Assembly: GCA_046757025.1 (NCBI GenBank) | Contig: JBHHXN010000074.1 | Location: 1-24,100, forward strand | DNA: 24,100 nt | Direction: 5' to 3' | Source of the DNA: a bacterium | GTDB taxonomy: Bacteria > Zhuqueibacterota > Zhuqueibacteria > Oceanimicrobiales > Oceanimicrobiaceae | Shown: positions 1-13,687 of the stretch, one piece after another | How the letters are laid out: every line of letters begins with the position of its first letter | How positions within the stretch are numbered: position 1 is the first letter of the stretch | Program-made: the position numbers and the translations under genes | The notes under the pieces: generated by a model | Database searches by the model: none | Seen by the model: only the letters and a program-made list of their open reading frames with translations | What the model was told of the DNA's origin: nothing

Positions 1-16
1 TGTCCTTTGAATCGGG

Positions 17-42
17 AGACTCCTGCATTCGCAGGAGTGACA
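17..42. repeat. REP-like palindrome (GATTCC..GGAATGAC-type right arm)
   Basis: Perfect hairpin ACTCCTGC-ATTC-GCAGGAGT (19-38) followed by GACA; same architecture as the arms at 227-245 and 358-417. Confidence 0.6.
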
Positions 43-155
43 CCTGAATAGTTACTTTTTCTTTTAAAATATGCCCGAACTGAGCGATTGACAACAGAGG
101 GAATTTCGGTGTTCAAGCTTTAGAGCCTGTAAGATAACACACAAATCTCCTGCTC

Positions 156-245
156 TGTCCTGCCCCGCCTTGCGGGGCAGGCGGTAGGAATCTTTTTAGT
201 TGAACGAAAGGCGCTGTTTATTGAAAAGATTTTTCCAGAATGACA
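156..245. repeat. Degenerate TGTC..GGAATCT / AGATT..GAATGACA REP dimer containing a GC-rich 10-bp hairpin
   Basis: TGTC (156-159), perfect hairpin CCTGCCCCGC-CTT-GCGGGGCAGG (159-181), GTAGGAATCTTTT (184-196), and inverted counterpart AAAAGATT...CAGAATGACA (224-245). Confidence 0.55.
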
Positions 246-357
246 TTCAATAGGTTTTGGTTTTTAATCAGCGCTTAGACTTTTTACACAGTCTCTTTTG
301 CTTGCTGGGCAGAGGGGATAGAACGGTGATAATCTTGGGTGAAAACAGTATTTCCAA

Positions 358-417
358 TGTCATTCACGCGAAAGCGGGAATCTATAAGCTGCTGTTTTTT
401 AATGGATTCCGGCTTTC
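358..417. repeat. TGTCATTC-type REP dimer, right arm incomplete
   Basis: Left arm TGTCATTCACGCGAAAGCGGGAATCTA (358-384). Right arm TGGATTCCGGCTTTC (403-417) matches the reverse complement of the left arm at 13/15 positions and then stops matching. Confidence 0.7.
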
Positions 418-420
418 AGC

Positions 421-591
421 ATGGAACAGGCGACGTTCGAGGCAGGGAACTATGCGAATCTTGCGTTGGCCGTGTTCGCGGTCATAGGGCTCACGACGAA
501 ACGGGCGTCTGTCCAGTGGGCTTCTGCCGCCACGTTCGGGTTTGTCATTGTGTGGGCCAGCGTCTTCGTTTGGACCGGCGGTTCGCTCTAG
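421..591 (+). CDS. Small two-TM hydrophobic ORF (56 aa), probably the 3' part of an integron cassette gene
   Basis: Manual translation MEQATFEAGNYANLALAVFAVIGLTTKRASVQWASAATFGFVIVWASVFVWTGGSL*: two hydrophobic segments separated by TTKR. The TAG stop lies 22 nt before the attC R'' box. No SD sequence; in-frame TAA at 400-402. Absent from the supplied ORF track (shortest listed ORFs are 60 aa). Confidence 0.5.
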   Translation: MEQATFEAGNYANLALAVFAVIGLTTKRASVQWASAATFGFVIVWASVFVWTGGSL

Positions 592-613
592 CGTGGACCG
601 TAGGCCGCAGACC

Positions 614-680
614 GCCCAACAAGCCCGTGAAGCAGACGAGCGCGGTTTCGCCGACTACCGCTTACTGGCAGACGTTAGCT
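614..680 (+). mobile_element. attC: Integron attC recombination site (solitary in this window)
   Basis: R'' GCCCAAC (614-620, RYYYAAC), 5-nt spacer, L'' CGTGAAGC (626-633), central region with a CGG-TTTCG-CCG mini-hairpin, L' GCTTACT (660-666), R' GTTAGCT (674-680). GCCcGT[G]AAGC pairs with GCTTACtGGC with one extra-helical base at 629. Length 67 bp. Confidence 0.8.
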
Positions 681-790
681 CGTGACACCCCACGCATGGG
701 CACCTCGCATGAGAGAGGCATACAGACCAGCACGAACAAGTGGATTAGCAGAAAGTGCCCCCCCTGAATGTTTCCTGAGAGCGGTAGGCT

Positions 791-1864
791 TTATTTGTTT
801 TCAGAGCGAGCGGCTTTCAATCGGCGATTTATTTTTGCCAGACGGATGAGCAGGGTTTCGAGCTGTTGGGAATACGTTTCGGGTTTGAGCAAATCTTTTT
901 TCACTTTCAATTCTTCGATGGCTTGCTCCAATTTCAGCTTTTCGATCCCGAGACTGTCCGTAGCGGTGAGGCTGCCGGATTCGGCTCTGTTCAGGGTTTT
1001 TTCCAGCTCTGTAGAAAGCGGACCGAGATAAACGCGACTGGCCCAGCGCCCATCTTTGGCGTCGGTCGGCTCCTGACTGCCTTCGCCATCGCCGTTGTCA
1101 TCCAGCAGGGGATGCTCCGCGCGAATCTGACGTTTTTCTTCAAACCACTGGTCCTGGCTGGTTTTGGCGTACTTAAACGCCTCGAGCATGCTGATGCGGT
1201 TGTCTTTGTTGATGTCGGCGGCGTCGCTTGCCAGCGCTTCTAAAAAGAAGTCGGCAAAATTGGTTTCGTATTTTTCCAGGCCGCTTTTGGTGGCGGTGAT
1301 GAGCACCCGGTGTTCGCCACTCAATTTTTGAATGAACGGACCGCTGGCGCTGGCGGTGTTCACCAGTACGATTTTCTTGCTGGGCAGATTGGCCAGCAGC
1401 TCGCCGAATTCGATATCTTTCAAATCGGGTCCCTTCAAGTTGAACTTGCTAAAGGTACCGTCAAAGGTGCCGTGCCCCACGAGAAAAACGAACAGTTGGT
1501 CCTGCTCGGTCATTTTTCGTTTTAGGTGATAAAATGCCCTGCGAACGTTTTCGCCCGTGGCTGCGTAATCGATACGTAACGAGTCAAAAGCGGGCTCTTC
1601 AAAGAGATAAAGGACGTTGTCCGGCTGGTATTCAAATTTGTTTACCAGCAAATCGACCATTTGACTTGTCTGGGCGAAATATTTCTCCGAGTACTCTTTT
1701 TGACCGCCCATGCCGCCGACCACCAAGGCGTAACGTTCTCCCAGCGAAAAGGCGGTTTGTGCAGTCAATTGATGAGTGAAAAGACACCCGGCCAGCAAAA
1801 TAAATCCCCGCAATGTTTGTGGCATTTTTCTTGTTTGGTGATTTGAAGGATTTTTTCTGTTCAT
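791..1864 (-). CDS. Exported caspase/legumain (C13/C14)-fold protein with Ser at the catalytic Cys position
   Basis: N-terminal hydrophobic signal-like segment, first strand RYALVVG, LFVFLVGHG (His131), LVNTASASG (Ser172), VLITAT, Ca-loop-like DINKDNRIS and DDNGDG, and a C-terminal coiled coil. The ATG overlaps the upstream TAA (TAATG). Confidence 0.75.
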   Translation of the reverse strand: MNRKNPSNHQTRKMPQTLRGFILLAGCLFTHQLTAQTAFSLGERYALVVGGMGGQKEYSEKYFAQTSQMVDLLVNKFEYQPDNVLYLFEEPAFDSLRIDYAATGENVRRAFYHLKRKMTEQDQLFVFLVGHGTFDGTFSKFNLKGPDLKDIEFGELLANLPSKKIVLVNTASASGPFIQKLSGEHRVLITATKSGLEKYETNFADFFLEALASDAADINKDNRISMLEAFKYAKTSQDQWFEEKRQIRAEHPLLDDNGDGEGSQEPTDAKDGRWASRVYLGPLSTELEKTLNRAESGSLTATDSLGIEKLKLEQAIEELKVKKDLLKPETYSQQLETLLIRLAKINRRLKAARSENK

Positions 1865-4146
1865 TACGATAATCCTTTATGTCGCCGAACGAACCATTCC
1901 ACTGTGAGCAGAAAGATGGCGATTAAAAACAGCAGCGGCACGTCCCACAAATCGTGCTCCACTAATTTGGAATAACTGCTGTTTTGAATGGAAATTTCAT
2001 CTGCCAGGATTTTGGCTTCGTCCTGATGATAATATTTCCCTCCGCTTATTTCAGCAAGGCGTTTCAACAGATTAGATTTGAGCTGAGCATGCGAAAACTC
2101 GGTTTTCGATTCTTCCACAAAGAACGCGGTTTCGGTTTTGCCCAAAAATTTACCTGAGGATGAATACGCGCGGATATCCACCAGATGCAATCCTTTTTCC
2201 TGCGGTTGGTAGTTGGCCACGTATTCCACTTTGCCGTTTGACGACCAGTTGAACGGCACCGAGATTACTTTGCCAGAAGGCGTGGTGATGAAGGCTTTTA
2301 TGGTGGCATTTTCCACGGAATTGTAGGTGCTGTCGCGCACATCCACGCTCAGGTGCACCGCTTCGGAAGGGGCGTAGGTGTCCTGATCCAGGCGACCTTC
2401 AATGGGCGAAGGCGAGGACAGCGCCAGCCAGCGCAGCAACTGCCGCCAGAATCTTTCGTGGTTGGTGTCTTCATGGGGCAAGCCCATTTGCCAGAGCCAG
2501 GAGCTGGATGTGGAAAAAACCATGGAGCGGCCGCGGCCAAATCGTTGCTGCGCCATAATGATTTTGGGATTTTCAATTTCGCTCAAAGGATGCACCGCCA
2601 GAATGGTGGCGCCGGGTTTGGCGCGTCCCAGGGGATTGTACCCTTCCAATTCCGGCATGTTTTCCCATTTGGAGCGATTGTCACTTTCGTCGGTGGCCAG
2701 TTGCAGAATGGCGGTGTCGTAGCCCTCCGGTGTGAGCACCAGTTTGAACTTATCCCGAAAAGTGGTGGGCGTGTTTGAGGCGGTGCCGTTGTGGTACGGC
2801 AGCTCGACCGGTAAGATCTTTTCGATGGGGGTGTTGCCGTATCCGCCTTGATTGAACGAATGCACGCCGCCGAGCATCAAAAATCCACCGCCGCGCTGAG
2901 ACACAAATTCCTGGGTGTTGAGAAGCTCTTTCTCACTGAAAAAATCCGCCTCGATGCTACCCAGAATGATGGCGTCGTATTTGAACAGAGCTTCTTTGGT
3001 TTTGGGGTAACCGTCTTTTAGCTCGTTTTGATCTTTGATTCCCTGGCGGTAGAATTTGTCGACGCCGGTTCTGAGCAGCGAAACCAGCTCGATGCTTATG
3101 TCGCCATCCAGCGCCCGCCGCAAATACTTGAACTCGGCGCGCGGGTAGCCTTCAATGTAAAGCACCCTGGCTTTTTTGTGGCGGTTGTCGATCAAAAAGC
3201 TTTTGCTGTTGTTTTCTTTGATGATCTCGTTTTCGCTGGCCACCGCATTCAGCGCGTAGTGTACAAAACCGCGTTTCTGTGGTGAAAATTTCATGGTAAC
3301 GCGGGTGCCGGAGCCGCGGAGCTTTACAACTTGCTTTTTAACCAGGAGGCCTTCTTCCCGCAGCTCAATTTCAACTTCTTTATTTTCAAAGTTATTATTT
3401 TTCACCAGCGCGGAAATCTCAACCACCGAGTTTTCAATGGTGGAATGGTTGGCCGCGACTTTGGCGATTTCGATATCTTTGGAAGTCTCGCTGCCCACGC
3501 CCACCACATAAACGGGTAGATCGCTGTTATTCAAAAGGGCCGCTGTTTCCAGAGGGTCCTGTGCGGTGTTGTTGGCGCCGTCGGTCAACAGCAGCACGCC
3601 GGAAAATCGACCCTGGGAACCGATCTCACCGGCAAATTCCAAACTCGCAGCTAAGTCGGTGATTTCTCCGCCAGCGGTCAGGTGAGCGGTCTGATTGAGC
3701 CGCTCTACTTCGGAGGCAAATTTGTAGGTTTGTACTTTGAAGTTCTTTTTCAACGCTTGTAACAAGCCCGGCTGGTTTGCGTCACCAAGTAATTTTTGCA
3801 CGTAAGCAGAGCGGGATTCACCACCGTTCACGTCTTTGATGCTCATACTTTTGGAATCGTCCACCAGCAGGATCAGAGAACTTTTGCGCGGGATAACGCT
3901 GGTGACTTGAATGATAGGTTCAAACAAAGCCAGAATCAGCAGGCCGAGCACCAGCATTTTTAACCCGAGCAGCATGCCTTTCAGCCACTGAGAAAGCTCC
4001 AGCGTGGTTTTTCGATAAGCAAACCACAGAGAAAGGGCCAGCAGCGCCGTGATGCCAAGCAGGGCGAACAGCGACGGTAAAACATTAAATCCGAAATGGC
4101 CTTCTTTGTAGAGAACGGGAGAAAATTTTAATAAGAATTCAAACAT
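1864..4146 (-). CDS. Membrane-anchored vWA + Ig-like + class I glutamine amidotransferase-like (DUF1355-type) protein
   Basis: Two N-terminal TMs, MIDAS-like VDDSKSM and LLTDG, beta-rich middle part, RVLYIEGYPRAEFKYLRR, GGGFLMLGG, FGRGRSMVF..SWLW, and a C-terminal TM ending EWFVRRHKGLS. Confidence 0.85.
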   Translation of the reverse strand: MFEFLLKFSPVLYKEGHFGFNVLPSLFALLGITALLALSLWFAYRKTTLELSQWLKGMLLGLKMLVLGLLILALFEPIIQVTSVIPRKSSLILLVDDSKSMSIKDVNGGESRSAYVQKLLGDANQPGLLQALKKNFKVQTYKFASEVERLNQTAHLTAGGEITDLAASLEFAGEIGSQGRFSGVLLLTDGANNTAQDPLETAALLNNSDLPVYVVGVGSETSKDIEIAKVAANHSTIENSVVEISALVKNNNFENKEVEIELREEGLLVKKQVVKLRGSGTRVTMKFSPQKRGFVHYALNAVASENEIIKENNSKSFLIDNRHKKARVLYIEGYPRAEFKYLRRALDGDISIELVSLLRTGVDKFYRQGIKDQNELKDGYPKTKEALFKYDAIILGSIEADFFSEKELLNTQEFVSQRGGGFLMLGGVHSFNQGGYGNTPIEKILPVELPYHNGTASNTPTTFRDKFKLVLTPEGYDTAILQLATDESDNRSKWENMPELEGYNPLGRAKPGATILAVHPLSEIENPKIIMAQQRFGRGRSMVFSTSSSWLWQMGLPHEDTNHERFWRQLLRWLALSSPSPIEGRLDQDTYAPSEAVHLSVDVRDSTYNSVENATIKAFITTPSGKVISVPFNWSSNGKVEYVANYQPQEKGLHLVDIRAYSSSGKFLGKTETAFFVEESKTEFSHAQLKSNLLKRLAEISGGKYYHQDEAKILADEISIQNSSYSKLVEHDLWDVPLLFLIAIFLLTVEWFVRRHKGLS

Positions 4147-4200
4147 CGATTGTAGTTAATTTATTTTAATGATTGCGGATGGTGTTTTTAGCAACCGTAC

Positions 4201-7200
4201 CTATTTTGTTTTTGAAAGCGCTTCATAATATTTCTGTACCAGCTCCACGTATTCCGGCGGAATTTTTTCGTCTTTTGCCAGGAACAATTTTTCTCTGTTT
4301 TGCATGAGCTCCACTTTTTGCGCCAGCTCGGATTCAAAACCCTTGAGTGGAATTAACACCTGGGCTTCGATGAGCTTCAAGCGATTTTCGTCGCCGCCGG
4401 TAAACGTGCGCAAGATACGCTGCATGTTTTGGTTGATGCGGTTGGCTTGCCGGGCCAGGGAAGTGTCCACTTGTGTGGAGTTTTCAATGAATTCCAATTC
4501 CTGCAGTCCCCGGGCCAGCTCCTCATTCAGCCAGTCTAATTTGCGCGGATCGAGATCCTGATCCGGTTTGCGGTTTTCACCGGGGCCGGCGCGTCTGGCT
4601 TGCGCGTTCTCCCTATTTTGCCCGGAATTTTGATTTTCCTCGGATGCCGCTCGGTTGAGCTCCTGTGCCTGCCTTTGAATGGCTTCCAATTTTTCACGCA
4701 GTTTGCGAGTCTGGTTGAGCGCCAGGTCCAACTTTTCCTCTTCCGAGTCCGCGAAACGACTCTGCATACGAGTGAATTTGTCCTGCATTCTTTCCAGCAT
4801 GTTTTTAATGTCGCGCTCCGCTTGCAGTGCAGAGTTTAATCGGTTCTTGGCTAGCATATCTTCGGCGCTGTCCATTTTCCGTTCGATTTTGGCGTTTTCC
4901 AGTTCCTGTGAAAATTTATGGAGATGCCGCGTGGCTTCGTTTTTGGATTTGCCGGCACTGTCCGAAAGGTTCTTTATCTTTTCCTTCAGCGCTGCGTAAT
5001 CCTGTTTGACTTTCAGCTGAGCTTGCTGTGCTTGGCTTTTTTCTTTCTCGGTACCTTGCTGGTTTTTAGTCATTTCTTCAACATCTTTGGTGAGCTTTTT
5101 TTGAGAATTGGCCAGCCTCTGAAATTGTTTGTCGATGGAATCAAACTGCCTTCTCAGGGATTCTTTCTGATTTTTCTCCAGTAATTTTTCCAGTTGTTTC
5201 AGGCGATTTAATGCCTGCTGGCCTTTGGCCGCCGCTAAATCGGTGTTTTGCTGCCGAAGATTTTTAGAGGAGTTGTTCATTTCCGAAGAGGAGCGTCGTA
5301 AGTTCTCCTGGATGTCTCTGGACAAGCTGCGGTTTTGCTGCCCTGACTGCTGCATTTTGCGCGCAAGCTGTTGAGTCTCTCGACGCATTTCTTCCTGCAG
5401 CCGGCGCAGCTCCTGAATTTGTCGACGTTTTTCTGCTGGCGGCAGCTTCTTTTTAGCCAGGTTGCGCAATTTTTGATTGACTTGCTGCTGACGCCGCGCC
5501 AGCTCTTTCACTTTTTCCAGAGCCTCATCAACTTGTTGGTCCGCCTGTTTCTGCAGATTGTCACGCGCCGACTCATATTTGTTTTTGAGCTTATCCATTT
5601 CATCTTCGAAAAGCTGTGCCAGCTCATCGAGGGTGGCGCGGTTGCTAGCGCCCTGAGCTTGCGCCTGCTGCAATTGCAATTCGGTCATTTGCGCTTCCGC
5701 CCGCAGTAAACTCTGCAGGGATTCCCTTTCCGGCGTCTGAGCTTCCTTTAATCTTTTTGCCTGCAATGCTACCACAGCCCGGCCCATGGCTTCCACCGCG
5801 TCTGAGTAAAATTCGGTGATGTTGCCTTCGTTGTTGCGCGAGAAAAACGACCGTTGTTGAATTTGGTAAAGGGTATTTTGGGTGACTTCCTGCAGGTTTT
5901 CCTGACTTTCTACCAGCACGTCCACACTTTCCTGAAATTTTTCCGGAGTGAGCATGTCTTTTTTTCGAAACAGCTTCCAGGTTGCCACCATGATGTCTTT
6001 TTGTGTTTGTGACAACCGGCCGCCGGGTCCGCTCATGCCGGCCATTTGACCCTGAGATACTGGTCGCAGGAAATCTTTTTCAAACGGCCGGATTTCCAGA
6101 AAGAAAATCTCGGAAGTCACCGGCGCCATGTTGGCTGCGTGGTTGTTGTCGTTGGCCTGTACATAGTAAGTTACAAAGTCGCCGGGCTGAACCTGCATGT
6201 CCTCCAGAAAGAAATCGTAATGGGCGCTGAATTCCTGAATTTCCTCGAATGAAACCTGTTTAGAAGATTTCAGGTTTTTGTCGATGGGCAGGCTGACAGT
6301 TTGGTCCTCTCCGCCGCTGACGGTGTAAATCAATTTCAGATCCGCCAGCCCATAATCATCCTGGATACTCACGCGGATGGGCACTTCTTCCAGCATGGTG
6401 ACTTTCAGGTCGCGGCCGGGCTCTTGCAGAGAAAGTGTGGGCGGTTGATCCGGCATGGCGTGCACAAAGTACTCCAAGGGCAAGTTGCTCAAACCATCCA
6501 GATCCGTGATCAAAATCTTGTAGTACGTGTCGTGCGTCACTTTGAGGGAAGCGGTCACCACCGTATCCTGTCTCACTGTGGTTGGCAGTTTTTTACCTTC
6601 GCCTACCAGCACCAAGCCTTCTTTGAGCGGTTTGTCGGTGATGGCGGTAATCCGCACCACCGAGCCTTCCGGCGCCCAGATGTCGCCGCTGTCCATCTCT
6701 TTTTTAGGACGCAGGCCGGTGTAGTCTGGAAAACGGTAGTACAAGTCCACACGTTTGATGGCGGGTGCGTCGTACAGATTTACGGTGTAAATTTCAGAAA
6801 GCTGTTCCTCGGCTTTTACGTAGTATTTGGTGGGTTGCTGCAAATCAAAAAAATTGTAAACAAACGTGTTGGGCTCCTTAGTCCGGTCCATGGCGATTTT
6901 GTTCCACAGAGAATCGTTCGTGGTGTAATATAAAACCATCTCTTCCGAATCAAATCCGCTGATTTCGGCTTTGATTTCCTGGGCAGAACCGCGGGGCAAT
7001 CGCACGTTTCCGGGTGTGACCTCCAAACTTTTACCCAATTTGATATCCGGTATGGACCACGGTTTGAAAAGCCGGTTGGATTTGAGCGTGATGAAATCCA
7101 GATTTGAAATCGCCAGCGCACTCAGAAAAACACAAACCGTCAACGCCAGGCTGCTCCAGGCGATGGCGGTGCGGGCGTGAATTTCTTTCGGCAGGTTCAT

Positions 7201-7605
7201 CGGTTCGATGTGAAAACGCGTGTCCTCCAGCAGCTTGTTGAGGATCTGAGCGGAAATCCGGGGATCGTCGGCGCCTCCTAACTCCACCGCGCTCACCAAC
7301 CGATCTTCCAATTCCGGATGCCTTTCTTCAATATAGCGTGCGATCTGATTGGCGGACGGCGCTCGCCGCAATGGTCGCAGCAATTCTCTGTAAAACAACA
7401 TCAAAAACACCGCTGCGCTCACCAGCAGCATCGCCAGTCGAATGGAATTGTTCAGCACAAAAAACGTGTCCAGCGCAAACGCCAGCAGCAAGGTGCCGAT
7501 AAGCGTGAGCAGCACTTTTGCACCGCCGCGGATCAATATCAACTTCCGCCAGCGGCGAAAGACTTGCGTGATTCTTTCTTGCAGTATTTTATGTTGAAGA
7601 TTCAT
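4201..7605 (-). CDS. DUF4175-like membrane protein with Ig-like domains and a very long coiled coil
   Basis: 1134 aa; three N-terminal TMs around ARYIEERHPELEDRLVSAVEL, beta-rich domains (DDYGL, YYVQAND), about 500 aa of Q/E/K/L-rich helix, and C-terminal IPPEYVELVQKYYEALSK. Confidence 0.8.
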   Translation of the reverse strand: MNLQHKILQERITQVFRRWRKLILIRGGAKVLLTLIGTLLLAFALDTFFVLNNSIRLAMLLVSAAVFLMLFYRELLRPLRRAPSANQIARYIEERHPELEDRLVSAVELGGADDPRISAQILNKLLEDTRFHIEPMNLPKEIHARTAIAWSSLALTVCVFLSALAISNLDFITLKSNRLFKPWSIPDIKLGKSLEVTPGNVRLPRGSAQEIKAEISGFDSEEMVLYYTTNDSLWNKIAMDRTKEPNTFVYNFFDLQQPTKYYVKAEEQLSEIYTVNLYDAPAIKRVDLYYRFPDYTGLRPKKEMDSGDIWAPEGSVVRITAITDKPLKEGLVLVGEGKKLPTTVRQDTVVTASLKVTHDTYYKILITDLDGLSNLPLEYFVHAMPDQPPTLSLQEPGRDLKVTMLEEVPIRVSIQDDYGLADLKLIYTVSGGEDQTVSLPIDKNLKSSKQVSFEEIQEFSAHYDFFLEDMQVQPGDFVTYYVQANDNNHAANMAPVTSEIFFLEIRPFEKDFLRPVSQGQMAGMSGPGGRLSQTQKDIMVATWKLFRKKDMLTPEKFQESVDVLVESQENLQEVTQNTLYQIQQRSFFSRNNEGNITEFYSDAVEAMGRAVVALQAKRLKEAQTPERESLQSLLRAEAQMTELQLQQAQAQGASNRATLDELAQLFEDEMDKLKNKYESARDNLQKQADQQVDEALEKVKELARRQQQVNQKLRNLAKKKLPPAEKRRQIQELRRLQEEMRRETQQLARKMQQSGQQNRSLSRDIQENLRRSSSEMNNSSKNLRQQNTDLAAAKGQQALNRLKQLEKLLEKNQKESLRRQFDSIDKQFQRLANSQKKLTKDVEEMTKNQQGTEKEKSQAQQAQLKVKQDYAALKEKIKNLSDSAGKSKNEATRHLHKFSQELENAKIERKMDSAEDMLAKNRLNSALQAERDIKNMLERMQDKFTRMQSRFADSEEEKLDLALNQTRKLREKLEAIQRQAQELNRAASEENQNSGQNRENAQARRAGPGENRKPDQDLDPRKLDWLNEELARGLQELEFIENSTQVDTSLARQANRINQNMQRILRTFTGGDENRLKLIEAQVLIPLKGFESELAQKVELMQNREKLFLAKDEKIPPEYVELVQKYYEALSKTK

Positions 7606-7699
7606 TGCAATTTCTCATTAGATTAGGCTCTCACATGTCCATTTTTATTTCATCATGAATGACCTTGCCTGTATTGATGGCCCGTCATGCACGAAATGA

Positions 7700-9778
7700 T
7701 CAACGGTACGTTCGATTGGCTAACCAGGTTTCCCCGATCAAAAGCAAAACCACCGCCAGCAGCGCCAGCCGCCAGAGTTTCTGATGCCGTTCTTTTTCGA
7801 TTTCTTGCAGGGGCGACGACAAGGCAGCGGTTTGCGGTTCGGGGTCTGCTTCCGAGGTGATTTGACTCTGAAGTTCTGCTAAATTTAGCTGCGTCAAATC
7901 GGCTTCTGTCGGGTCTATGTTGACCGCAAATGCTGCCAGCGCCCGCTTGCGCCCTTTGCGCAAAATGCGGTAAATTCCCAGCGTGGCGGTGTTTTTAAAC
8001 AGCACCTCTTTCAGATCGACTTTTTCACCATCCGGTTTCGCCACTTCAAAGTGTACCTGGTTGTTGGCGGTGCTGGCAAAATTGTGCAGTGCCACGGGCT
8101 GCCCCACCAAATACGACCTCTGGCCTTTTTCCTGTGGCGCGATATGCTGCAGCGTCTGGTAGAGGATGGGTAGAAATATCGCTTTCACCGGCAGATTATT
8201 CCACTCGGCGTCCAAACTGGAGGTGAAGAGGACGACTTTGCCATCCCCAACATGGCGCTCTAAAACCGCCGGACCACCGTCATCGTACGAGGCCAACACC
8301 GACGAAGCAGCGTACGGCTGAGTGTAGTAATACTGGTAAAATTGCGCGGTGCCGGGATCGCCCTGACTGGCGTCTGAAAATATCTTGAAGATGGGATGCT
8401 GATAATCGGTCTCCGCTAAAATCACGCTGTTTTCACGATTGACGGAATCAAAAGCCAAATTGTTGATGGTCGCCGGCGAGAGCTCCTGAAAAAGGCGATT
8501 GTAGATTGTTGGGTTCACGCGATCTCCCAAGGCGATCAGCAGCCCGCCGCCATTGCGCACGTAATAATGCAATTGCTCCAGAATGGTCCTTCCCATATCT
8601 TTCACGTTGGCTAAAATCACCGTCTGGTAATCGTTAAAATCCACATTGTGCAGTTGTTCTGGCGTAGTGTTCGTCAACTTGAATTTTGAGAGTTTTGGCA
8701 GATTGAGCGCCCGATCGAGGTAGAACAACTCGTCTTTGATGACGTCCCGTCGGTCCGGCTCGCCGTCCACCGCCAGAATTTGCGCCTGGTTTTGCTTCTC
8801 GATAACAAAATAATGGTGATTGTCTTGCCACAGTCCGTCCTTCTGAGCCCGAATTTCCACGTGCCCGGTGACCTGTCCTTTAGGAATCCGCACATTCGAA
8901 AATTGCACAATTTTTTCTTCATCTGCCGCAAGCGACACCTTTCTCTGTGCCACTTTGCGCTGGTTGATATGCAGAAGGACAGTGGCTTGTCTCTTTTTCC
9001 CGCCGTAATTTTTAATTCGCACCAATGCGTTCTTATTTTTGCTCGATTTTCTGGTAGCTGAAATATGGACTTCTTTAATGGCCAGGTTGGTATGGTTTTC
9101 AGGAGCCACATCCATAAAATGTAAACGAATGTCCGGCACGACGCCGATGTTTGAATATAAAGTGGGTAAGCCGCTTTTCTGGAAATCGGAAATGAGGTAC
9201 ATTTCTTTCAAATTAAAACCCGTATCCAGCAGGTAAGTCTCGGCTGACTCGATGGCGATCAAATAATGGGTGCCGAAATTGGTAAGCGGAATTTTGCTTT
9301 CGATTTCGTTTTGGGTTAAAGCGTAATTTGAAGTCATCTCGCTGATGATTTTCGCGCTTTCCGCAAAGGACATGATGGCGACCTTGTCACCCGGATTAAA
9401 AGAAGCCAGCACCTTTCTGGCGTTTTTAATTGCTTCCTGGAACTTTTCTCCGTAATCCATGCTGTATGAGTTGTCGATCAAAATCACTGCGGCTTTCGGT
9501 TGCCGGCTCCAGATGCTGTCCGGATCGGTATTGGCGAAATAGGGGCGGGCAAAGGCCAGGGCTAACAACGCCAGCGCCAAAATGCGCATGAGCAAAAGAA
9601 GAAGCTGTTTGAATTTTTGTGACTTGACTTTTTGATTCGGATGGATCTGCAAAAAACGCATGGCGGCAAACGGCAGTTTCACCGCGCGATTGCGTTTGAT
9701 CAAATGGATGATGATGGGAATGCTGGTGGCTACCAGTCCCCACAAAAAGAGAGAATTTAAATAAGTCAATCCAAACAT
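7700..9778 (-). CDS. BatA-type N-terminal double-TM + vWA + Ig-like + GATase-like protein
   Basis: IPIIIHLIKR...FAAMRFL...LLLLMRILALALLALAFARP (BatA N-terminal domain), MIDAS IDNSYSM and ISDFQ, GGGLLIALG, HPIF, and a C-terminal TM LWRLALLAVVLLLIGETWL. Confidence 0.9.
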   Translation of the reverse strand: MFGLTYLNSLFLWGLVATSIPIIIHLIKRNRAVKLPFAAMRFLQIHPNQKVKSQKFKQLLLLLMRILALALLALAFARPYFANTDPDSIWSRQPKAAVILIDNSYSMDYGEKFQEAIKNARKVLASFNPGDKVAIMSFAESAKIISEMTSNYALTQNEIESKIPLTNFGTHYLIAIESAETYLLDTGFNLKEMYLISDFQKSGLPTLYSNIGVVPDIRLHFMDVAPENHTNLAIKEVHISATRKSSKNKNALVRIKNYGGKKRQATVLLHINQRKVAQRKVSLAADEEKIVQFSNVRIPKGQVTGHVEIRAQKDGLWQDNHHYFVIEKQNQAQILAVDGEPDRRDVIKDELFYLDRALNLPKLSKFKLTNTTPEQLHNVDFNDYQTVILANVKDMGRTILEQLHYYVRNGGGLLIALGDRVNPTIYNRLFQELSPATINNLAFDSVNRENSVILAETDYQHPIFKIFSDASQGDPGTAQFYQYYYTQPYAASSVLASYDDGGPAVLERHVGDGKVVLFTSSLDAEWNNLPVKAIFLPILYQTLQHIAPQEKGQRSYLVGQPVALHNFASTANNQVHFEVAKPDGEKVDLKEVLFKNTATLGIYRILRKGRKRALAAFAVNIDPTEADLTQLNLAELQSQITSEADPEPQTAALSSPLQEIEKERHQKLWRLALLAVVLLLIGETWLANRTYR

Positions 9779-9781
9779 GAT

Positions 9782-10675
9782 TTAGCCCTTTTTGCTGCGA
9801 TACGCCAAAAAACTAAACAACGCGAAATCGAGTGGTTTGGAAGTGTTCAGGACATGATAGTCGATTTTCAATCTGCCACACTCCCTTTTAAAGGTGTCGA
9901 TGTGCTCGTTTAGATTTTGCAGATACGTATCCCGCACCAGAGATGGGATGGCGACAAATTGCGCCGTGCCTTCCAGGTCGATAAACTTGGTGGCGTTTTC
10001 GAAGGGGAAATTCAACTCGGTTTCGTCCATCACATGAAAAATGATGACATCGTGCCCTTTGAAGCGAAAATGCTGCAATCCTTGCATCACCGTCTGCGGG
10101 TCGTCCAAAAGATCGGAGATCAGGATCACCATGCCTTTCTTGTTCAGCTTTTCCGCCAGCTGGTGCAAAGGAATGGCTATTTTCGTCTCCTGTCCTTTTT
10201 CTAATTTTTCGAGATAGCGCAAAATCGAAAGCAGGTGTCCTTTTTTATTTCTCGAAGGGAAAAATTGTTTGATCTCCTGATCAAAAGTCACCAGACCCAC
10301 GCCGTCGCGCTGTTGAAACATGAGGTAGCCTAACGATGCCGCCACGTACGAGCCGTATTCCAATTTCGAGATGCCTTTGCTGGTGTAATTCATGGATGAG
10401 CTGATGTCCAGCAAAATATGACAGCTCAAATTGGTTTCTTCTTCAAATTGTTTTAAATAGTAGCGATCGGAGCGTGCGTACACTTTCCAGTCGATGAAGC
10501 GGGTGTCATCGCCGGGGGCGTATTCCCGGTATTCGGCAAACTCCACGCTGAATCCGCGATACGGGCTGCGGTGCAATCCGGAAATGAATCCTTCCACCAC
10601 GGTGCGGGCGCGCAGCTCCATGCTGGAGATTTTCGAAAGAATTTTGGGCTCTAAAAACCGCAATTGATTGGACAT
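9782..10675 (-). CDS. DUF58 family vWA-like protein (MoxR partner)
   Basis: GLHRSPYRGFSVEFAEYREYAPGDDTRFIDWKVYARS...KQFEEETN, MIDAS LLDISSSM and ILISDLL; immediately downstream of moxR. Confidence 0.95.
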   Translation of the reverse strand: MSNQLRFLEPKILSKISSMELRARTVVEGFISGLHRSPYRGFSVEFAEYREYAPGDDTRFIDWKVYARSDRYYLKQFEEETNLSCHILLDISSSMNYTSKGISKLEYGSYVAASLGYLMFQQRDGVGLVTFDQEIKQFFPSRNKKGHLLSILRYLEKLEKGQETKIAIPLHQLAEKLNKKGMVILISDLLDDPQTVMQGLQHFRFKGHDVIIFHVMDETELNFPFENATKFIDLEGTAQFVAIPSLVRDTYLQNLNEHIDTFKRECGRLKIDYHVLNTSKPLDFALFSFLAYRSKKG

Positions 10676-10836
10676 GTGTTAGGCACTCAGAATTTTGCAG
10701 TTACATAGATTTTTTATTTCGGATCAAAGGTGTCAATCATTTTCACGCACAGTCGCTAAAACCAATAGATTTCGCAAACAATAACCCGGTGAAGTTCTGC
10801 TGAACTGTCAAACGCGAAATGTTCCTCATCCTGTAA

Positions 10837-11865
10837 TCAAATACCGGATCGGGGTTCGGGCACCGTTTCCAGCAGTCGATTGATGATATCCACCGAGGTG
10901 ATTTTTTCGGATTCCGCATAGAAATTGGTTAAAATGCGGTGCCGTAAAACCGGCAGCGCCAGCGCTTTGATATCTGAAATCGAAACGTTGTAGCGGCCTT
11001 CCATGATGGCGCGCGCTTTGCCGCCCAGTATCAAATATTGCGATGCGCGCAGTCCCGCACCCCAACTGACCCAATTTTTCACAAATTCCGGATTCTTGTT
11101 ATTGGTGGGCCGGCTGGCGCTCACCAGGCGCACCGCATACTGCGCCACTCCTTTTGCCAGCGGCACTTTGCGCACGATCTTCTGATATTCCATGATCTCC
11201 TGGCCCGAGATGACGCTTTGCAGGTCCGGCACATAATTCGAAGTCGTGGAGGTCACCACTTCCACTTCTTCCTCTTCCGGCAAATAATCCATCACAATGT
11301 TGAACATAAAACGATCCAGTTGCGCCTCGGGCAGGGGGTAGGTGCCTTCCAGCTCGATGGGATTCTGCGTAGCCAGTACAAAAAAGGGCTCTTCGAGATG
11401 GTAGGTTTTTCCGCCGGCAGTGACCCGGTGCTCCTGCATGGCTTCCAGCAACGCCGACTGGGTTTTGGGCGGTGTGCGGTTGATTTCATCGGCGAGGATG
11501 ACGTTAGCAAAAATGGGTCCTTTGATGAAATTGAGCGTTCTTCGGCCGGTGGTTCGGTCTTCCTCGATGACGTCGGTTCCGATGATATCCGCCGGCATGA
11601 GATCGGGTGTAAACTGAATACGGTTGAATTTCAAATCCAGGATCTCCGCGATGGCTCGTATCAGCAGGGTTTTCGCCAGCCCGGGCACGCCGGTGATCAG
11701 ACAATGCCCGCCTGAAAACAGCCCGATCAACACCTGCTGGATCACTTTGTCCTGGCCGGTAATGGTCTTTTTGAGCTCGGAAATGATTTTTTTGTTGCCC
11801 TCTCTGAGCCTTTCTACCAGCACCAGATCTTGTTTTTGTTCCGTTAATCTTTCGAAGTCCGACAT
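10837..11865 (-). CDS. moxR: MoxR family AAA+ ATPase
   Basis: Walker A GVPGLAKT, RIQFTPDLMPADIIG, Walker B ILADEINRTPPKTQSALLEAM, ATQNPIELEGTYPLPEAQLDRF, VLRHRI; SD GGAG upstream of the ATG. Confidence 0.97.
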   Translation of the reverse strand: MSDFERLTEQKQDLVLVERLREGNKKIISELKKTITGQDKVIQQVLIGLFSGGHCLITGVPGLAKTLLIRAIAEILDLKFNRIQFTPDLMPADIIGTDVIEEDRTTGRRTLNFIKGPIFANVILADEINRTPPKTQSALLEAMQEHRVTAGGKTYHLEEPFFVLATQNPIELEGTYPLPEAQLDRFMFNIVMDYLPEEEEVEVVTSTTSNYVPDLQSVISGQEIMEYQKIVRKVPLAKGVAQYAVRLVSASRPTNNKNPEFVKNWVSWGAGLRASQYLILGGKARAIMEGRYNVSISDIKALALPVLRHRILTNFYAESEKITSVDIINRLLETVPEPRSGI

Positions 11866-11928
11866 ATCTTCTCCATTTTAAAATGCTTTTCTCAGGACGA
11901 TTGACTTTTTAGTGTCTGAACGAAATCG

Positions 11929-12032
11929 ATTCCTCTGTTTCACGAAGGCTTCCGGGCCGAGGTTGACGCTCTGCATCTCTCAGTGGAGCCTGTCCGGAGC
12001 CTTGTCGAAGGGACGTCTTCGCAACAGAGAAT
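11929..12032. repeat. Intergenic inverted-repeat element containing a CCTTCGACAAG..CAGGC-type short repeat
   Basis: Imperfect inverted arms ATTCCTCTGTTTCACGAAG (11929-11947) and CTTCGCAACAGAGAAT (12017-12032); internal GCCTGTCCGGAGCCTTGTCGAAG (11988-12010) flanked by GGA on both sides. Confidence 0.45.
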
Positions 12033-12058
12033 GTTTTAGCTTATCCTAAAATCTCCAT

Positions 12059-12832
12059 TTAATGTGTTAATGCGTAAATAACAAAATTTATTCCTAACTT
12101 AAATGCTTCGGCTGAGTATTTCGGCGGGTAGCGCGGGTCTTTGGCGTGTTCCCAGGCGTCTCCCATGTCCATGTTGCGGATGACCAGCACCATCAACCGT
12201 TCCTGATCATCGAAGATGCCCATGCAGCGCTGGTTGATGCCGCCTTTCTCAAACGTGACGCCGCGCAGCCAGGAACCCAGACCCGGAATCTGGACCACTT
12301 CGTCGAAATCATAAAAACAGTGAAAAATTGGATGGTCGATAGGAATATCGCTGATTTTGCGTTTCGGAAAGACTTTCTTCATCTGGTGCACAAAACTTTG
12401 CCATTCGAAGGGTCCGTGAAAGTCGTCCACCATCAAAAAACCGCCGCGCATGAGCCACTCGCGCAGGCTGTCGGCCTCACTCTGGTTGAGGGTCATGAAA
12501 CCGACTTCGACCATATAGGCGAACGGGTAGCGAAAGAAATCCGAATCAAAGAACGAAAGCGACACGGGGTGGTCGGCCACATTCAACGCCGTCCAGTTTT
12601 TGAGTCCCTCCATGAAATTTTCTTCTGCTGAGGGATAATCCACTGCCCAGCTCAACCAATTGGGCCCAAAGGGATTTCGCAGGCGAAAATTCGTGCCGCC
12701 GGAATGATACTTTATTCTCACAAAAGTAAACTCATCGCCGCTGCTACCCTGTGCAAAAGTGAATGAGGGTGTTTGAAATAAAAGAAAAATTGCAATTAAG
12801 ATGCGGCCTGCTCTCAAAGATGCGGTATTCAT
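12059..12832 (-). CDS. DUF4159 domain protein (exported), paralog 2
   Basis: Signal peptide ending AQ, FTFVRIKY, WAVDYPSAE, RGGFLMVDDF, HPIFHCF, DMGDAWE, LGINFVIYALTH. The ATG at 12832 (GAAGGG upstream) is preferred over the TTG at 12844. Confidence 0.88.
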   Translation of the reverse strand: MNTASLRAGRILIAIFLLFQTPSFTFAQGSSGDEFTFVRIKYHSGGTNFRLRNPFGPNWLSWAVDYPSAEENFMEGLKNWTALNVADHPVSLSFFDSDFFRYPFAYMVEVGFMTLNQSEADSLREWLMRGGFLMVDDFHGPFEWQSFVHQMKKVFPKRKISDIPIDHPIFHCFYDFDEVVQIPGLGSWLRGVTFEKGGINQRCMGIFDDQERLMVLVIRNMDMGDAWEHAKDPRYPPKYSAEAFKLGINFVIYALTH

Positions 12833-12847
12833 TGCGCCCTTCAATGG

Positions 12848-13564
12848 TTAGTGCGAGTATGAATAGATCAAATAGTTTATTCCGAGTTTATAGGATTCGG
12901 TGGAGAACTCCGGCGTTTCGTTGGGCAACTCCCAGCCATCTCCCACATCGTTATTATAATTTATTATGACCATGATTCTATCGTTCTCATCAAAAATCGC
13001 CCAATATTCCGGAGGAACGGATAGATAAGGTGTTAGCTGGTGAATGTCAGAATTTCGTAGATCGAAAAAACAATGAAAAATCGGATGGGTTACATTCAGT
13101 TTGCGTATGGAATGATTAGGCAGCACTTTGCGAATTTCGTTGATCCAGTTCTGCCACTCAAAACGCCAGCGGAAATCGTCCACCATGAGAAATCCTCCGC
13201 GCAACAGATATTCTCTGAGATTTTTCACTTCGGCATCCGACAGGGTTAAATAGCCGATTTCGCACGCGTAGATAAACGGGTACTTAAATATTTCTTCGTC
13301 TGCAAACGTCAAAACTTTGTTATCTTCCGAAACTTTAATACTTGTGGTCGCTTTTAAGGCGGTGTACAGGTTCTTCTCTGCCTGCGGGTAATCGTGCGCC
13401 CAGAAAGGGGCGTTGGTTGAGAATCCGTATCCATAACGGATGCCGTTTTCCTGCCAGCGAATACGGATAAATTTAAATTCATCTCCTGAAGGTACTTGTG
13501 CGATTACAGCCTGGGACAACCACAACAGCAAAAACAGCAAGCAAAAAATTGGTGTGATTTTCAT
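12848..13564 (-). CDS. DUF4159 domain protein (exported), paralog 1
   Basis: Signal peptide MKITPIFCLLFLLLWLSQAVIA, FKFIRIRW, WAHDYPQAE, RGGFLMVDDF, HPIFHCF, DVGDGWE, LGINYLIY; SD AAGGA upstream. Confidence 0.9.
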   Translation of the reverse strand: MKITPIFCLLFLLLWLSQAVIAQVPSGDEFKFIRIRWQENGIRYGYGFSTNAPFWAHDYPQAEKNLYTALKATTSIKVSEDNKVLTFADEEIFKYPFIYACEIGYLTLSDAEVKNLREYLLRGGFLMVDDFRWRFEWQNWINEIRKVLPNHSIRKLNVTHPIFHCFFDLRNSDIHQLTPYLSVPPEYWAIFDENDRIMVIINYNNDVGDGWELPNETPEFSTESYKLGINYLIYSYSH

Positions 13565-13687
13565 GGTTTTTCCTTTAATTTAAGAAATGAACCAGTTAAT
13601 CCAGGTGGTGTACTACCACGGCTGTTCGTTATTTTTTTTAAGAAACCCATTTGGAACCCTTGGTGTTCTTTTTGGCTGTACGTTGCC

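What the first reader, a model, noticed from the sequence alone, without database searches (positions are those of the whole stretch)
614..680. Orphan integron attC site with no integrase or neighbouring attC in 24 kb
Seen: R''(GCCCAAC)-5nt-L''(CGTGAAGC) ... L'(GCTTACT)-R'(GTTAGCT), 67 bp, with an extra-helical base in L'' and an unpaired central spacer. Established: this is the attC architecture folded on the bottom strand and recombined by IntI at G/TT. The poor complementarity of R' beyond GTT is expected if those bases come from the next cassette, and ATGs follow at 696 and 709. Inference: a cassette-cassette junction stranded at the 3' end of a chromosomal operon (SALIN/CALIN-like), possibly still usable by an IntI acting in trans.
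Basis: partly seen in the sequence, partly recalled or inferred. Interest (0 to 1): 0.75.

Follow-up and report, generated by a model that had tools for sequence, protein, structure and literature searches.

The report
Stranded relic of integron cassette
The 67-base site is the end-mark (attC) of a foreign-looking gene cassette that has lost the first 70% of its gene, likely left behind by this bacterium's own, now broken, gene-capture enzyme: an ordinary kind of integron leftover.

Summary
The attC is real. A covariance model built from 17 unrelated attC sites picks exactly 614-680 on the bottom strand (25.8 bits, E 2.6e-4). Its closest DNA relatives are attC sites in two Gemmatimonadota-phylum genomes, one beside an intI. 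The 61% GC island in a 47% GC genome is bridged by contigs of four runs, with no empty allele seen. After G|TT comes no gene but a ~65-base piece homologous to a non-coding unit with three other copies in this genome. 'Orphan' holds only locally. The site lies 613 bases from the contig end, and the genome holds an intI remnant and other attC sites. The hairpin is weak (-8.4 kcal/mol, weakest of 16 tested) but can still adopt the recombinogenic fold (pfold 0.12-0.23 alone). Verdict: a SALIN-type relic of a known kind. This scan has noted similar integrase-less relics on other DNA.

The parts
1..357 (.). Nest of host repeats at the contig start (several repeat classes)
   Evidence: up to about 90 overlapping blastn hits elsewhere in G000; classes; 43% GC over 1-420
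358..417 (+). Host REP-like palindromic repeat whose right arm is cut off at 417
   Evidence: other copies align over 358-417 at 85-88% and then continue the palindrome, while the window does not; loose ends of run contigs show the same
403..421 (+). Left junction: overlap of repeat homology and gene homology (microhomology)
   Evidence: repeat matches run to 417; matches to full-length gene relatives begin at 403 (L015), 410 (L012) and 419 (L014)
421..591 (+). 3' remnant of a cassette gene: residues 133-188 of a 188-aa hydrophobic protein family with no Pfam or NCBIfam match
   Evidence: 89% identity to P0001, E 8e-23, 16 relatives all 188 aa; no family hit; GC3 0.75 against 0.46-0.59 in two host genes
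592..613 (+). 22-nt linker between stop codon and R''
   Evidence: similar linker and same 22-nt offset to an attC left arm in relative L014
614..680 (-). attC site (bottom strand is the folding strand): R'' 614-620, L'' 626-633 with extra-helical base 629, L' 660-666, R' 674-680, crossover between 674 and 675
   Evidence: covariance model 25.8 bits; homologous attC sites L073 and L080 with double changes in the L stem; pair table and pfold
675..741 (+). Piece homologous to the 5' end of a non-coding (likely gene-less cassette) unit with three other copies in G000
   Evidence: HMM of the C93, C173 and C211 copies, window excluded, hits 672-741 at E 0.0097, next hit E 2.9; local score 69 against a maximum of 54.5 in 5000 random windows
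742..790 (.). Unassigned tail with a C run (758-764) that varies in length; a decayed second attC here is not supported
   Evidence: extra C in X2 and part of X4; arm scores unremarkable; no model hit
791..1864 (-). Intact last gene of the host MoxR/vWA operon (weak Peptidase_C13 hit), convergent on the relic
   Evidence: Pfam; C-terminus of similar length in 5 of 5 relative loci, none with a similar sequence behind the stop

Best explanation
614-680 is an integron attC site closing a gene cassette whose first 132 codons are missing, likely inserted by an integron integrase of the host lineage that has since decayed, and probably cut short later by a deletion into a neighbouring repeat. Shown: the attC boxes, the truncated 188-aa gene 22 bases upstream, the 61% GC island, the repeat/gene overlap at 403-421, the change of homology at G|TT, an intI remnant and other attC sites elsewhere in the genome. 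Inferred, step 1: a circular cassette from a GC-rich donor (Gemmatimonadota-like, not pinned down) was joined at its attC G to the TT of a resident non-coding unit, by cleavage of the folded bottom strand. Inferred, step 2: microhomology-mediated deletion removed everything between a REP-like repeat and codon 133, including the upstream att site and any promoter. Inferred, step 3: the relic now drifts. The gene is most likely dead and the cassette cannot excise as a unit. The attC hairpin could still be bound by an incoming IntI, at reduced efficiency.
For: Covariance model and matrix scores. Homologous attC sites in 2 of 400 Gemmatimonadota-phylum genomes, one next to an intI. Truncated gene. 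Close relatives carry attC left arms after the stop in 2 of 6 loci (L014 p 0.0007, L016 p 0.007), and a third (L012) lies between 122-nt repeats that separate unrelated genes. Island bridged in one contig in X2 and X3, and in two abutting contigs in X1 and X4. intI remnant at C47:9963-9793, 63% identical to a relative's IntI over 57 codons, with an internal stop. IntI over the cut-off in 53 of 121 genomes of the class. Homology to the resident unit starts at the GTT, and C173 holds an inverted copy of that unit's end-to-start junction, as a circular form would give. Allele differences at 533 (amino-acid changing), 646 and the C run.
Against: The downstream piece is only 73% identical to the host copies, so it may have come with the donor DNA. 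No empty site or intact ancestor was seen in the four runs or in 40 relatives, so the order of events is not shown. None of the 6 close-relative loci gives a full attC hit with model R1, and 0 of 29 distant-family loci in Gemmatimonadota do; only 1 of 7 loci does. The attC-like ends of the C93 and C173 units are not scored by R1 and have a 10-nt L'-R' spacer. Genome-wide E of the site is only 0.064 with a small home-made model.
Confidence: 0.62

Rival explanations
1. The whole 418-790 patch entered as a fragment of a foreign cassette array by illegitimate recombination at microhomologies (SPDIR- or HFIR-like). The attC and its G|TT junction were made in the donor, and no IntI acted at this locus.
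For: Microhomology at the left junction. GC is about 61% on both sides of the attC. The patch starts inside a gene and runs almost to the host stop codon, with no terminator found. SPDIR integrates foreign strands at microhomologies (abstract start of 10.1101/2023.11.22.568220).
Against: The piece after G|TT matches a unit found in four places in G000 and in none of 140 relatives; 1 of 146 Gemmatimonadota genomes gave a chance-level hit (only about 32 candidates were scored per genome). The host copies are as GC-rich there, so GC does not mark it as foreign.
Confidence: 0.22
2. The site is the last attC of a larger array or complete integron whose remainder lies beyond the contig end, so it is a CALIN or integron edge and not a single site.
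For: Only 613 bases lie to the left, the side on which attI and intI would lie. 6 of the 8 attC-like sites listed in G000 lie within 1.3 kb of a contig end. Draft genomes overestimate CALIN and In0 (PMC9024848, passages).
Against: The 417 bases to the left are host repeats, the gene is cut, and no attC is found in 1-613. No adjoining contig could be identified.
Confidence: 0.1
3. Assembly chimera: DNA of a co-occurring GC-rich organism was joined to the host contig through a repeat.
For: MAG of 374 contigs; the island sits near a contig end next to a high-copy repeat.
Against: Separately assembled contigs of four runs bridge the junctions at the same depth as the host gene, and no other organism's contig covers 422-720. 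These runs are one study and may be the source of the MAG.
Confidence: 0.03
4. Chance resemblance to an attC.
For: The fold is no better than shuffles. Isolated attC hits occur near the false-positive rate of the published model (PMC4889954, passages).
Against: Model and matrix scores, position 22 bases after a stop codon shared with L014, and homology to attC sites beside an intI.
Confidence: 0.03

Closest known systems
[quoted passage not shown]
   Same: A coding sequence followed by one attC, with no other att site or integrase nearby in the sequence held. The paper counts 3400 SALINs in 2469 of 21,105 genomes and shows IntI insertion at genomic GWT (attG) sites; the junction here is GTT.
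   Different: The gene is cut to its last 30%. The DNA after the crossover resembles a repeated non-coding unit, not arbitrary host DNA. Isolation cannot be shown on the left because the contig ends.
CALIN and decayed chromosomal integrons (PMC4889954; passages read)
   Same: attC sites without an intact intI, in a genome with an intI remnant. The paper names cassette degradation as one source of single sites.
   Different: Only one attC here. The intI remnant is on another contig (C47) with no attC beside it.
Short attC sites of Gemmatimonadota-phylum integrons (loci L073, L080, found here)
   Same: 66-67 bases, long L'-R' spacer, same box sequences in large part (mean column identity 86%).
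   Different: They fold at -20.6 and -20.9 kcal/mol (z -3.3, -4.9); the window site folds at -8.4 with one L-box mismatch and a ragged terminal stem.
Gene-less integron cassettes (bioRxiv 10.1101/2023.11.21.568050; abstract and outline seen)
   Same: The unit whose 5' end follows the attC has no gene between a GTT core and an attC-like end in C93 and C173.
   Different: No promoter activity or transcript was tested. The attC-like ends are atypical and not scored by R1. The window holds only the first 65 bases or so.

Membership tests
attC site | R'' (RYYYAAC) and R' (GTTRRRY) cores with AAC/GTT in register | tested here: met
   614-620 and 674-680; three Watson-Crick pairs plus a bottom-strand G.T. 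R' has C, not a purine, at its sixth base.
attC site | Complementary L''/L' boxes with an extra-helical base on the R''-L'' arm | tested here: met
   6 of 7 pairs, extra-helical base at 629, paired in the minimum-energy fold. The base is C on the bottom strand as in L073 and L080; a G-to-C change costs only 2.7-fold in VCR (PMC2727003, passages).
attC site | Unpaired central spacer and variable terminal structure | tested here: met
   spacers of 5 and 7 nt, partly paired; terminal stem-loop 634-659
attC site | Significant score with an attC covariance model | tested here: met
   own model R1: 25.8 bits, E 2.6e-4 in the window, 0.064 genome-wide. The published IntegronFinder model was not available.
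attC site | Stable recombinogenic fold of the bottom strand, favoured over the top strand | tested here: inconclusive
   pfold 0.12-0.23 alone (top strand 0.085), 5e-4 to 1e-2 with 10-100 nt flanks, bottom above top in 4 of 5 flank sizes; energy weakest of 16 sites and no better than shuffles
attC site | Recombined by IntI at G/TT | not testable with these tools
   needs an in vivo recombination assay
gene cassette | Gene followed closely by attC | tested here: met
   stop codon at 589-591, R'' 22 bases later
gene cassette | Intact 5' end starting at a core site (TTRRRY) | tested here: not met
   the first 132 codons and the 5' core are missing; it is a cassette remnant
SALIN | No intI and no other att site nearby | tested here: inconclusive
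   met to the right for 23 kb and to the left for 613 bases; the contig ends there and no neighbour was found
CALIN | Two or more attC sites in a cluster | tested here: not met
   one model hit in the window; a second decayed site at about 731-789 is not significant
complete integron | Intact intI with attI next to the array | tested here: not met
   no TIGR02249 match over the cut-off in G000; PF00589 finds only two other recombinases; one intI remnant on C47. The assembly is 94.8% complete.

The most novel reading that the evidence does not exclude
This genome carries a private, repeated, integrase-less docking unit (promoter-like stretch, direct repeats, GTT core, hairpin, attC-like end). 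It has been excised as a circle, has spread to at least four places, and captured different genes, among them a cassette from another phylum. The window would be a fourth, truncated copy, and cassette capture in this lineage would have been spread over the chromosome instead of one integron.
Probability: 0.25. Interest if true: 0.5.

Novelty: new member of a known kind. Interest (0 to 1): 0.24.

Why it matters
As it stands it is one more single-attC relic; thousands are on record. Its modest value: a single attC can be shown to be a true positive by reading the truncated gene beside it, both junctions are readable, and it points to cassette flow between a GC-rich Gemmatimonadota-like donor and a 47% GC vent bacterium of another phylum. 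If the repeated docking unit is real, it would add a case to the open question of how cassettes spread over chromosomes without an integrase next to them.

Tried and rejected
Rfam: 3 chance-level hits in window 1-1200 and none in the three host copies of the downstream unit, so no known RNA family. Plasmids: no match for 421-770; one chance hit (E 0.9) for the C93 unit. Viral contigs: no exact match for two patterns of the downstream piece. A next gene from ATG 696 or 709: rejected (see first-reader verdict). A second attC at about 731-789: arm scores rank only about 23,000th and 91,000th of 11.9 million, rejected as unproven. The downstream piece as a conserved structured RNA: 1 of 19 pairs with a double change among 4 copies, folds no better than shuffles, not supported. 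The upstream part of the C93/C173 unit as a known attI: no alignment above background to the intI-upstream regions of 17 relatives or to that of the C47 remnant; of 4 promoter-like hits in the C173 unit, 2.0 are expected by chance. A rule-based hit at 132-205 lies in host repeats and has no model support. Allele 646C does not improve the fold. The matrix scan (window 43.9, best shuffled 31.9) is partly circular: 4 of its 27 training sites came from loci found with the window; one search uses the other 23. The first pair table had wrong coordinates and was redone. No function was obtained for the 188-aa protein: no Pfam or NCBIfam hit, no Atlas result, no structure prediction tried. One literature search for repeated integrase-less attI in these taxa returned no paper (six terms, at least four required), which is too narrow to claim absence from print. 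The host phylum was not identified; 'KSB1' in that search was my untested guess.

Full report
Setting. The window is the whole contig C74 of G000, a 5.96 Mb assembly in 374 contigs, 47% GC, 94.8% complete. Four runs labelled hydrothermal vent metagenome, all of one study, hold the stretch. Most of the contig is a minus-strand MoxR/vWA/DUF58/TPR operon ending at 791. Bases 1-417 are host repeats with many copies elsewhere. Bases 421-770 are 61% GC and have no close copy in the genome.

The observation. The published attC model was not at hand (it is a supplement of PMC4889954 that I did not retrieve). I therefore built model R1 from 12 attC sites of class 1 integrons and 5 from an integron array of a relative of the host. 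R1 finds exactly 614-680 on the bottom strand at 25.8 bits, E 2.6e-4; the next hit in the window scores 10.3. Five sites of the relative's array that were not in the model score 25.9-43 bits, so the window site is at the low end of true sites. Genome-wide E is 0.064 (150 of 1029 candidates scored). A left-arm matrix from 23 sites, none found with the window, ranks 614 in the top 2 of 11.9 million positions. A DNA search of 400 Gemmatimonadota-phylum genomes gave 46 mostly weak matches. Of the 30 loci returned, 2 (L073, L080) hold clear attC homologs at the match, with changes on both sides of the L stem. L073 lies after an SDR gene next to an intI.

How well it folds. The bottom strand folds at -8.4 kcal/mol with L boxes in register but R boxes open, no better than shuffles (z +1.07). 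The two homologs fold at -20.6 and -20.9, and the window site is the weakest of 16 sites compared as they stand. The recombinogenic form is only 0.4 kcal/mol above the minimum: pfold 0.12-0.23 for the site alone, 5e-4 to 1e-2 with 10-100 flanking bases. In PMC5371416 (passages) sites at 0.24-0.35 recombine well and pairs at 3e-3 and 8e-6 do not. The site is therefore eroded but not shown dead.

The cassette it closes. 421-591 is an open frame of 56 codons. It matches residues 133-188 of a family of 188-aa hydrophobic proteins, 89% identical to the best of 16 hits, with no Pfam or NCBIfam match. Six loci with close relatives were recovered: one Gemmatimonadota MAG, whose genome also has an IntI, and five metagenome contigs of 53-65% GC. 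Two of the six have a significant attC left arm just after the stop, L014 at the same 22-base offset with a similar linker. A third, L012, lies between 122-base repeats that separate unrelated genes. Against this, none of the six gives a full R1 hit, nor does any of 29 distant-family loci from Gemmatimonadota; 1 of 7 loci does. So this subfamily is often, not always, cassette-borne. Among the other 166 genomes of the host phylum only six distant relatives (22-29% identity) were found. The donor is not pinned down.

Left junction. A host REP-like palindrome starts at 358 and matches other copies up to 417, where they go on with the right arm and the window does not. Matches to the gene's relatives begin at 403-419. 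The two homologies overlap, which fits a join at a microhomology. The label REP is from my own knowledge; the genome has a Y1 transposase gene.

Right junction. Homology to another element starts at the GTT. 674-737 is 73% identical to C93:52-114. An HMM of the three other copies (C93, C173, C211), built without the window, finds 672-741 at E 0.0097, with the next hit at 2.9. In C93 and C173 this piece is part of a shared non-coding unit of about 0.5 kb that ends in an attC-like hairpin, after whose GTT the two copies diverge into different genes (YaaC-like; DUF3644 and a type I methyltransferase). C173 also holds an inverted copy of the join between the unit's end and its GTT start, the junction a circular cassette would have. 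These ends fold at z -2.3 and -1.9 with L boxes paired but have a 10-base spacer and are not scored by R1, so their status is likely, not shown. The piece was not found in 166 genomes of the phylum by DNA search or in 140 relatives by model R2; 1 of 146 Gemmatimonadota genomes gave a chance-level hit. These searches are of limited sensitivity. The last host gene is intact, with a C-terminus like that in 5 relative loci.

Is it in the organism? Separately assembled contigs span 282-2153 (X2) and 26-1853 (X3) in one piece. X1 and X4 break only at the C run. Depth over the island equals that of the host gene, and no joint skipping the island is listed. Alleles differ at 533 (3 of 4 runs; Thr to Met), at 646 (3 of 4) and in C-run length. 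The runs may be the source of the MAG, so this argues against misassembly but is no independent sample.

Is it an orphan? No intact IntI was found in G000. C47:9963-9793 encodes 57 codons 63% identical to the IntI N-terminus of a relative, with an internal stop and no continuation. IntI passes the cut-off in 53 of 121 genomes of the class, and 13 of 20 family members have a strong match. R1 supports further attC sites at C197:1225-1352 (31.5 bits) and C276:3037-3167 (23.1), more weakly at C58 (17.1) and C197:125-252 (12.6). The window site lies 613 bases from the contig start, on the side where a platform would be, and no adjoining contig was found.

Mechanism. Established: IntI cleaves the folded bottom strand of attC at G/TT and joins cassettes to attI, to attC, or to genomic GWT sites. 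Best reading (0.62): the cassette was joined at its attC to a resident non-coding unit while the lineage still had an IntI, then lost its 5' part by deletion into the repeat. Main rival (0.22): the whole patch was imported from a donor array by illegitimate recombination. An array edge hidden by the contig end (0.10), a chimera (0.03) and chance (0.03) follow. That the site is an attC holds under the first three, and I put it at about 0.93.

Novelty. Single attC sites are a named and common class. This scan's earlier notes describe similar relics and repeated integrase-less platforms in other genomes; these are unchecked notes and only gave me the lead. Verdict: new member of a known kind, interest 0.24. 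Papers seen: 10.1101/2022.09.11.507474 (passages and Introduction), PMC4889954, PMC5371416, PMC2727003 and PMC9024848 (passages), 10.1101/2023.11.21.568050 (abstract and outline), 10.1101/2023.11.22.568220 (search listing with start of abstract). No supplements were read; the attC alignments in them could change the model scores.

Noticed in passing
G000 C93:1-344 with C14:1-250 (L103, L106), C173:5640-6251 (L104), C211:6960-6630 (L105): Repeated non-coding unit of about 0.5 kb with direct repeats, a GTT core whose next 15 bases are nearly complementary to the bases before its own R''-like box, and an attC-like end; different genes follow each copy; no intI beside any.
   Followed up: partly
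G000 C173:6051-6085 (L104): Inverted copy of the junction between the unit's attC-like end and its start, inserted inside the unit; looks like a trace of a circular form.
   Followed up: partly
G000 C47:9963-9793 (L004): intI remnant: N-terminal 57 codons with an internal stop, rest missing, no attC nearby.
   Followed up: yes
G000 C197:125-1352 (L070): Two attC sites around two AT-rich (20-30% GC) genes without Pfam match at a contig start: a small cassette array.
   Followed up: partly
G000 C276:3037-3167 (L072), C58:26065-26196 (L107), C93:19790-19908 (L108): Further single attC-like sites with altered R' or partial arms.
   Followed up: partly
L012:84-205, 825-946, 2544-2693, 3583-3656; L016:150-275; L014:616-850: Long attC-derived repeats between unrelated genes in GC-rich contigs; several end in GTAG instead of GTTAG and escape model R1.
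   Followed up: partly
L073:129-1568: intI followed in the same orientation by an SDR gene with an attC, then katG.
   Followed up: no
window 791-16312 (minus strand): Operon of TPR/peptidase MA, two DUF4159 genes, MoxR ATPase, DUF58, BatA/vWA, DUF4175, vWA/GATase-like and a Peptidase_C13-like gene.
   Followed up: no
window 1-417: Nest of at least four host repeat classes at the contig start; the genome has over 100 REP-like arms and a Y1 transposase gene.
   Followed up: partly
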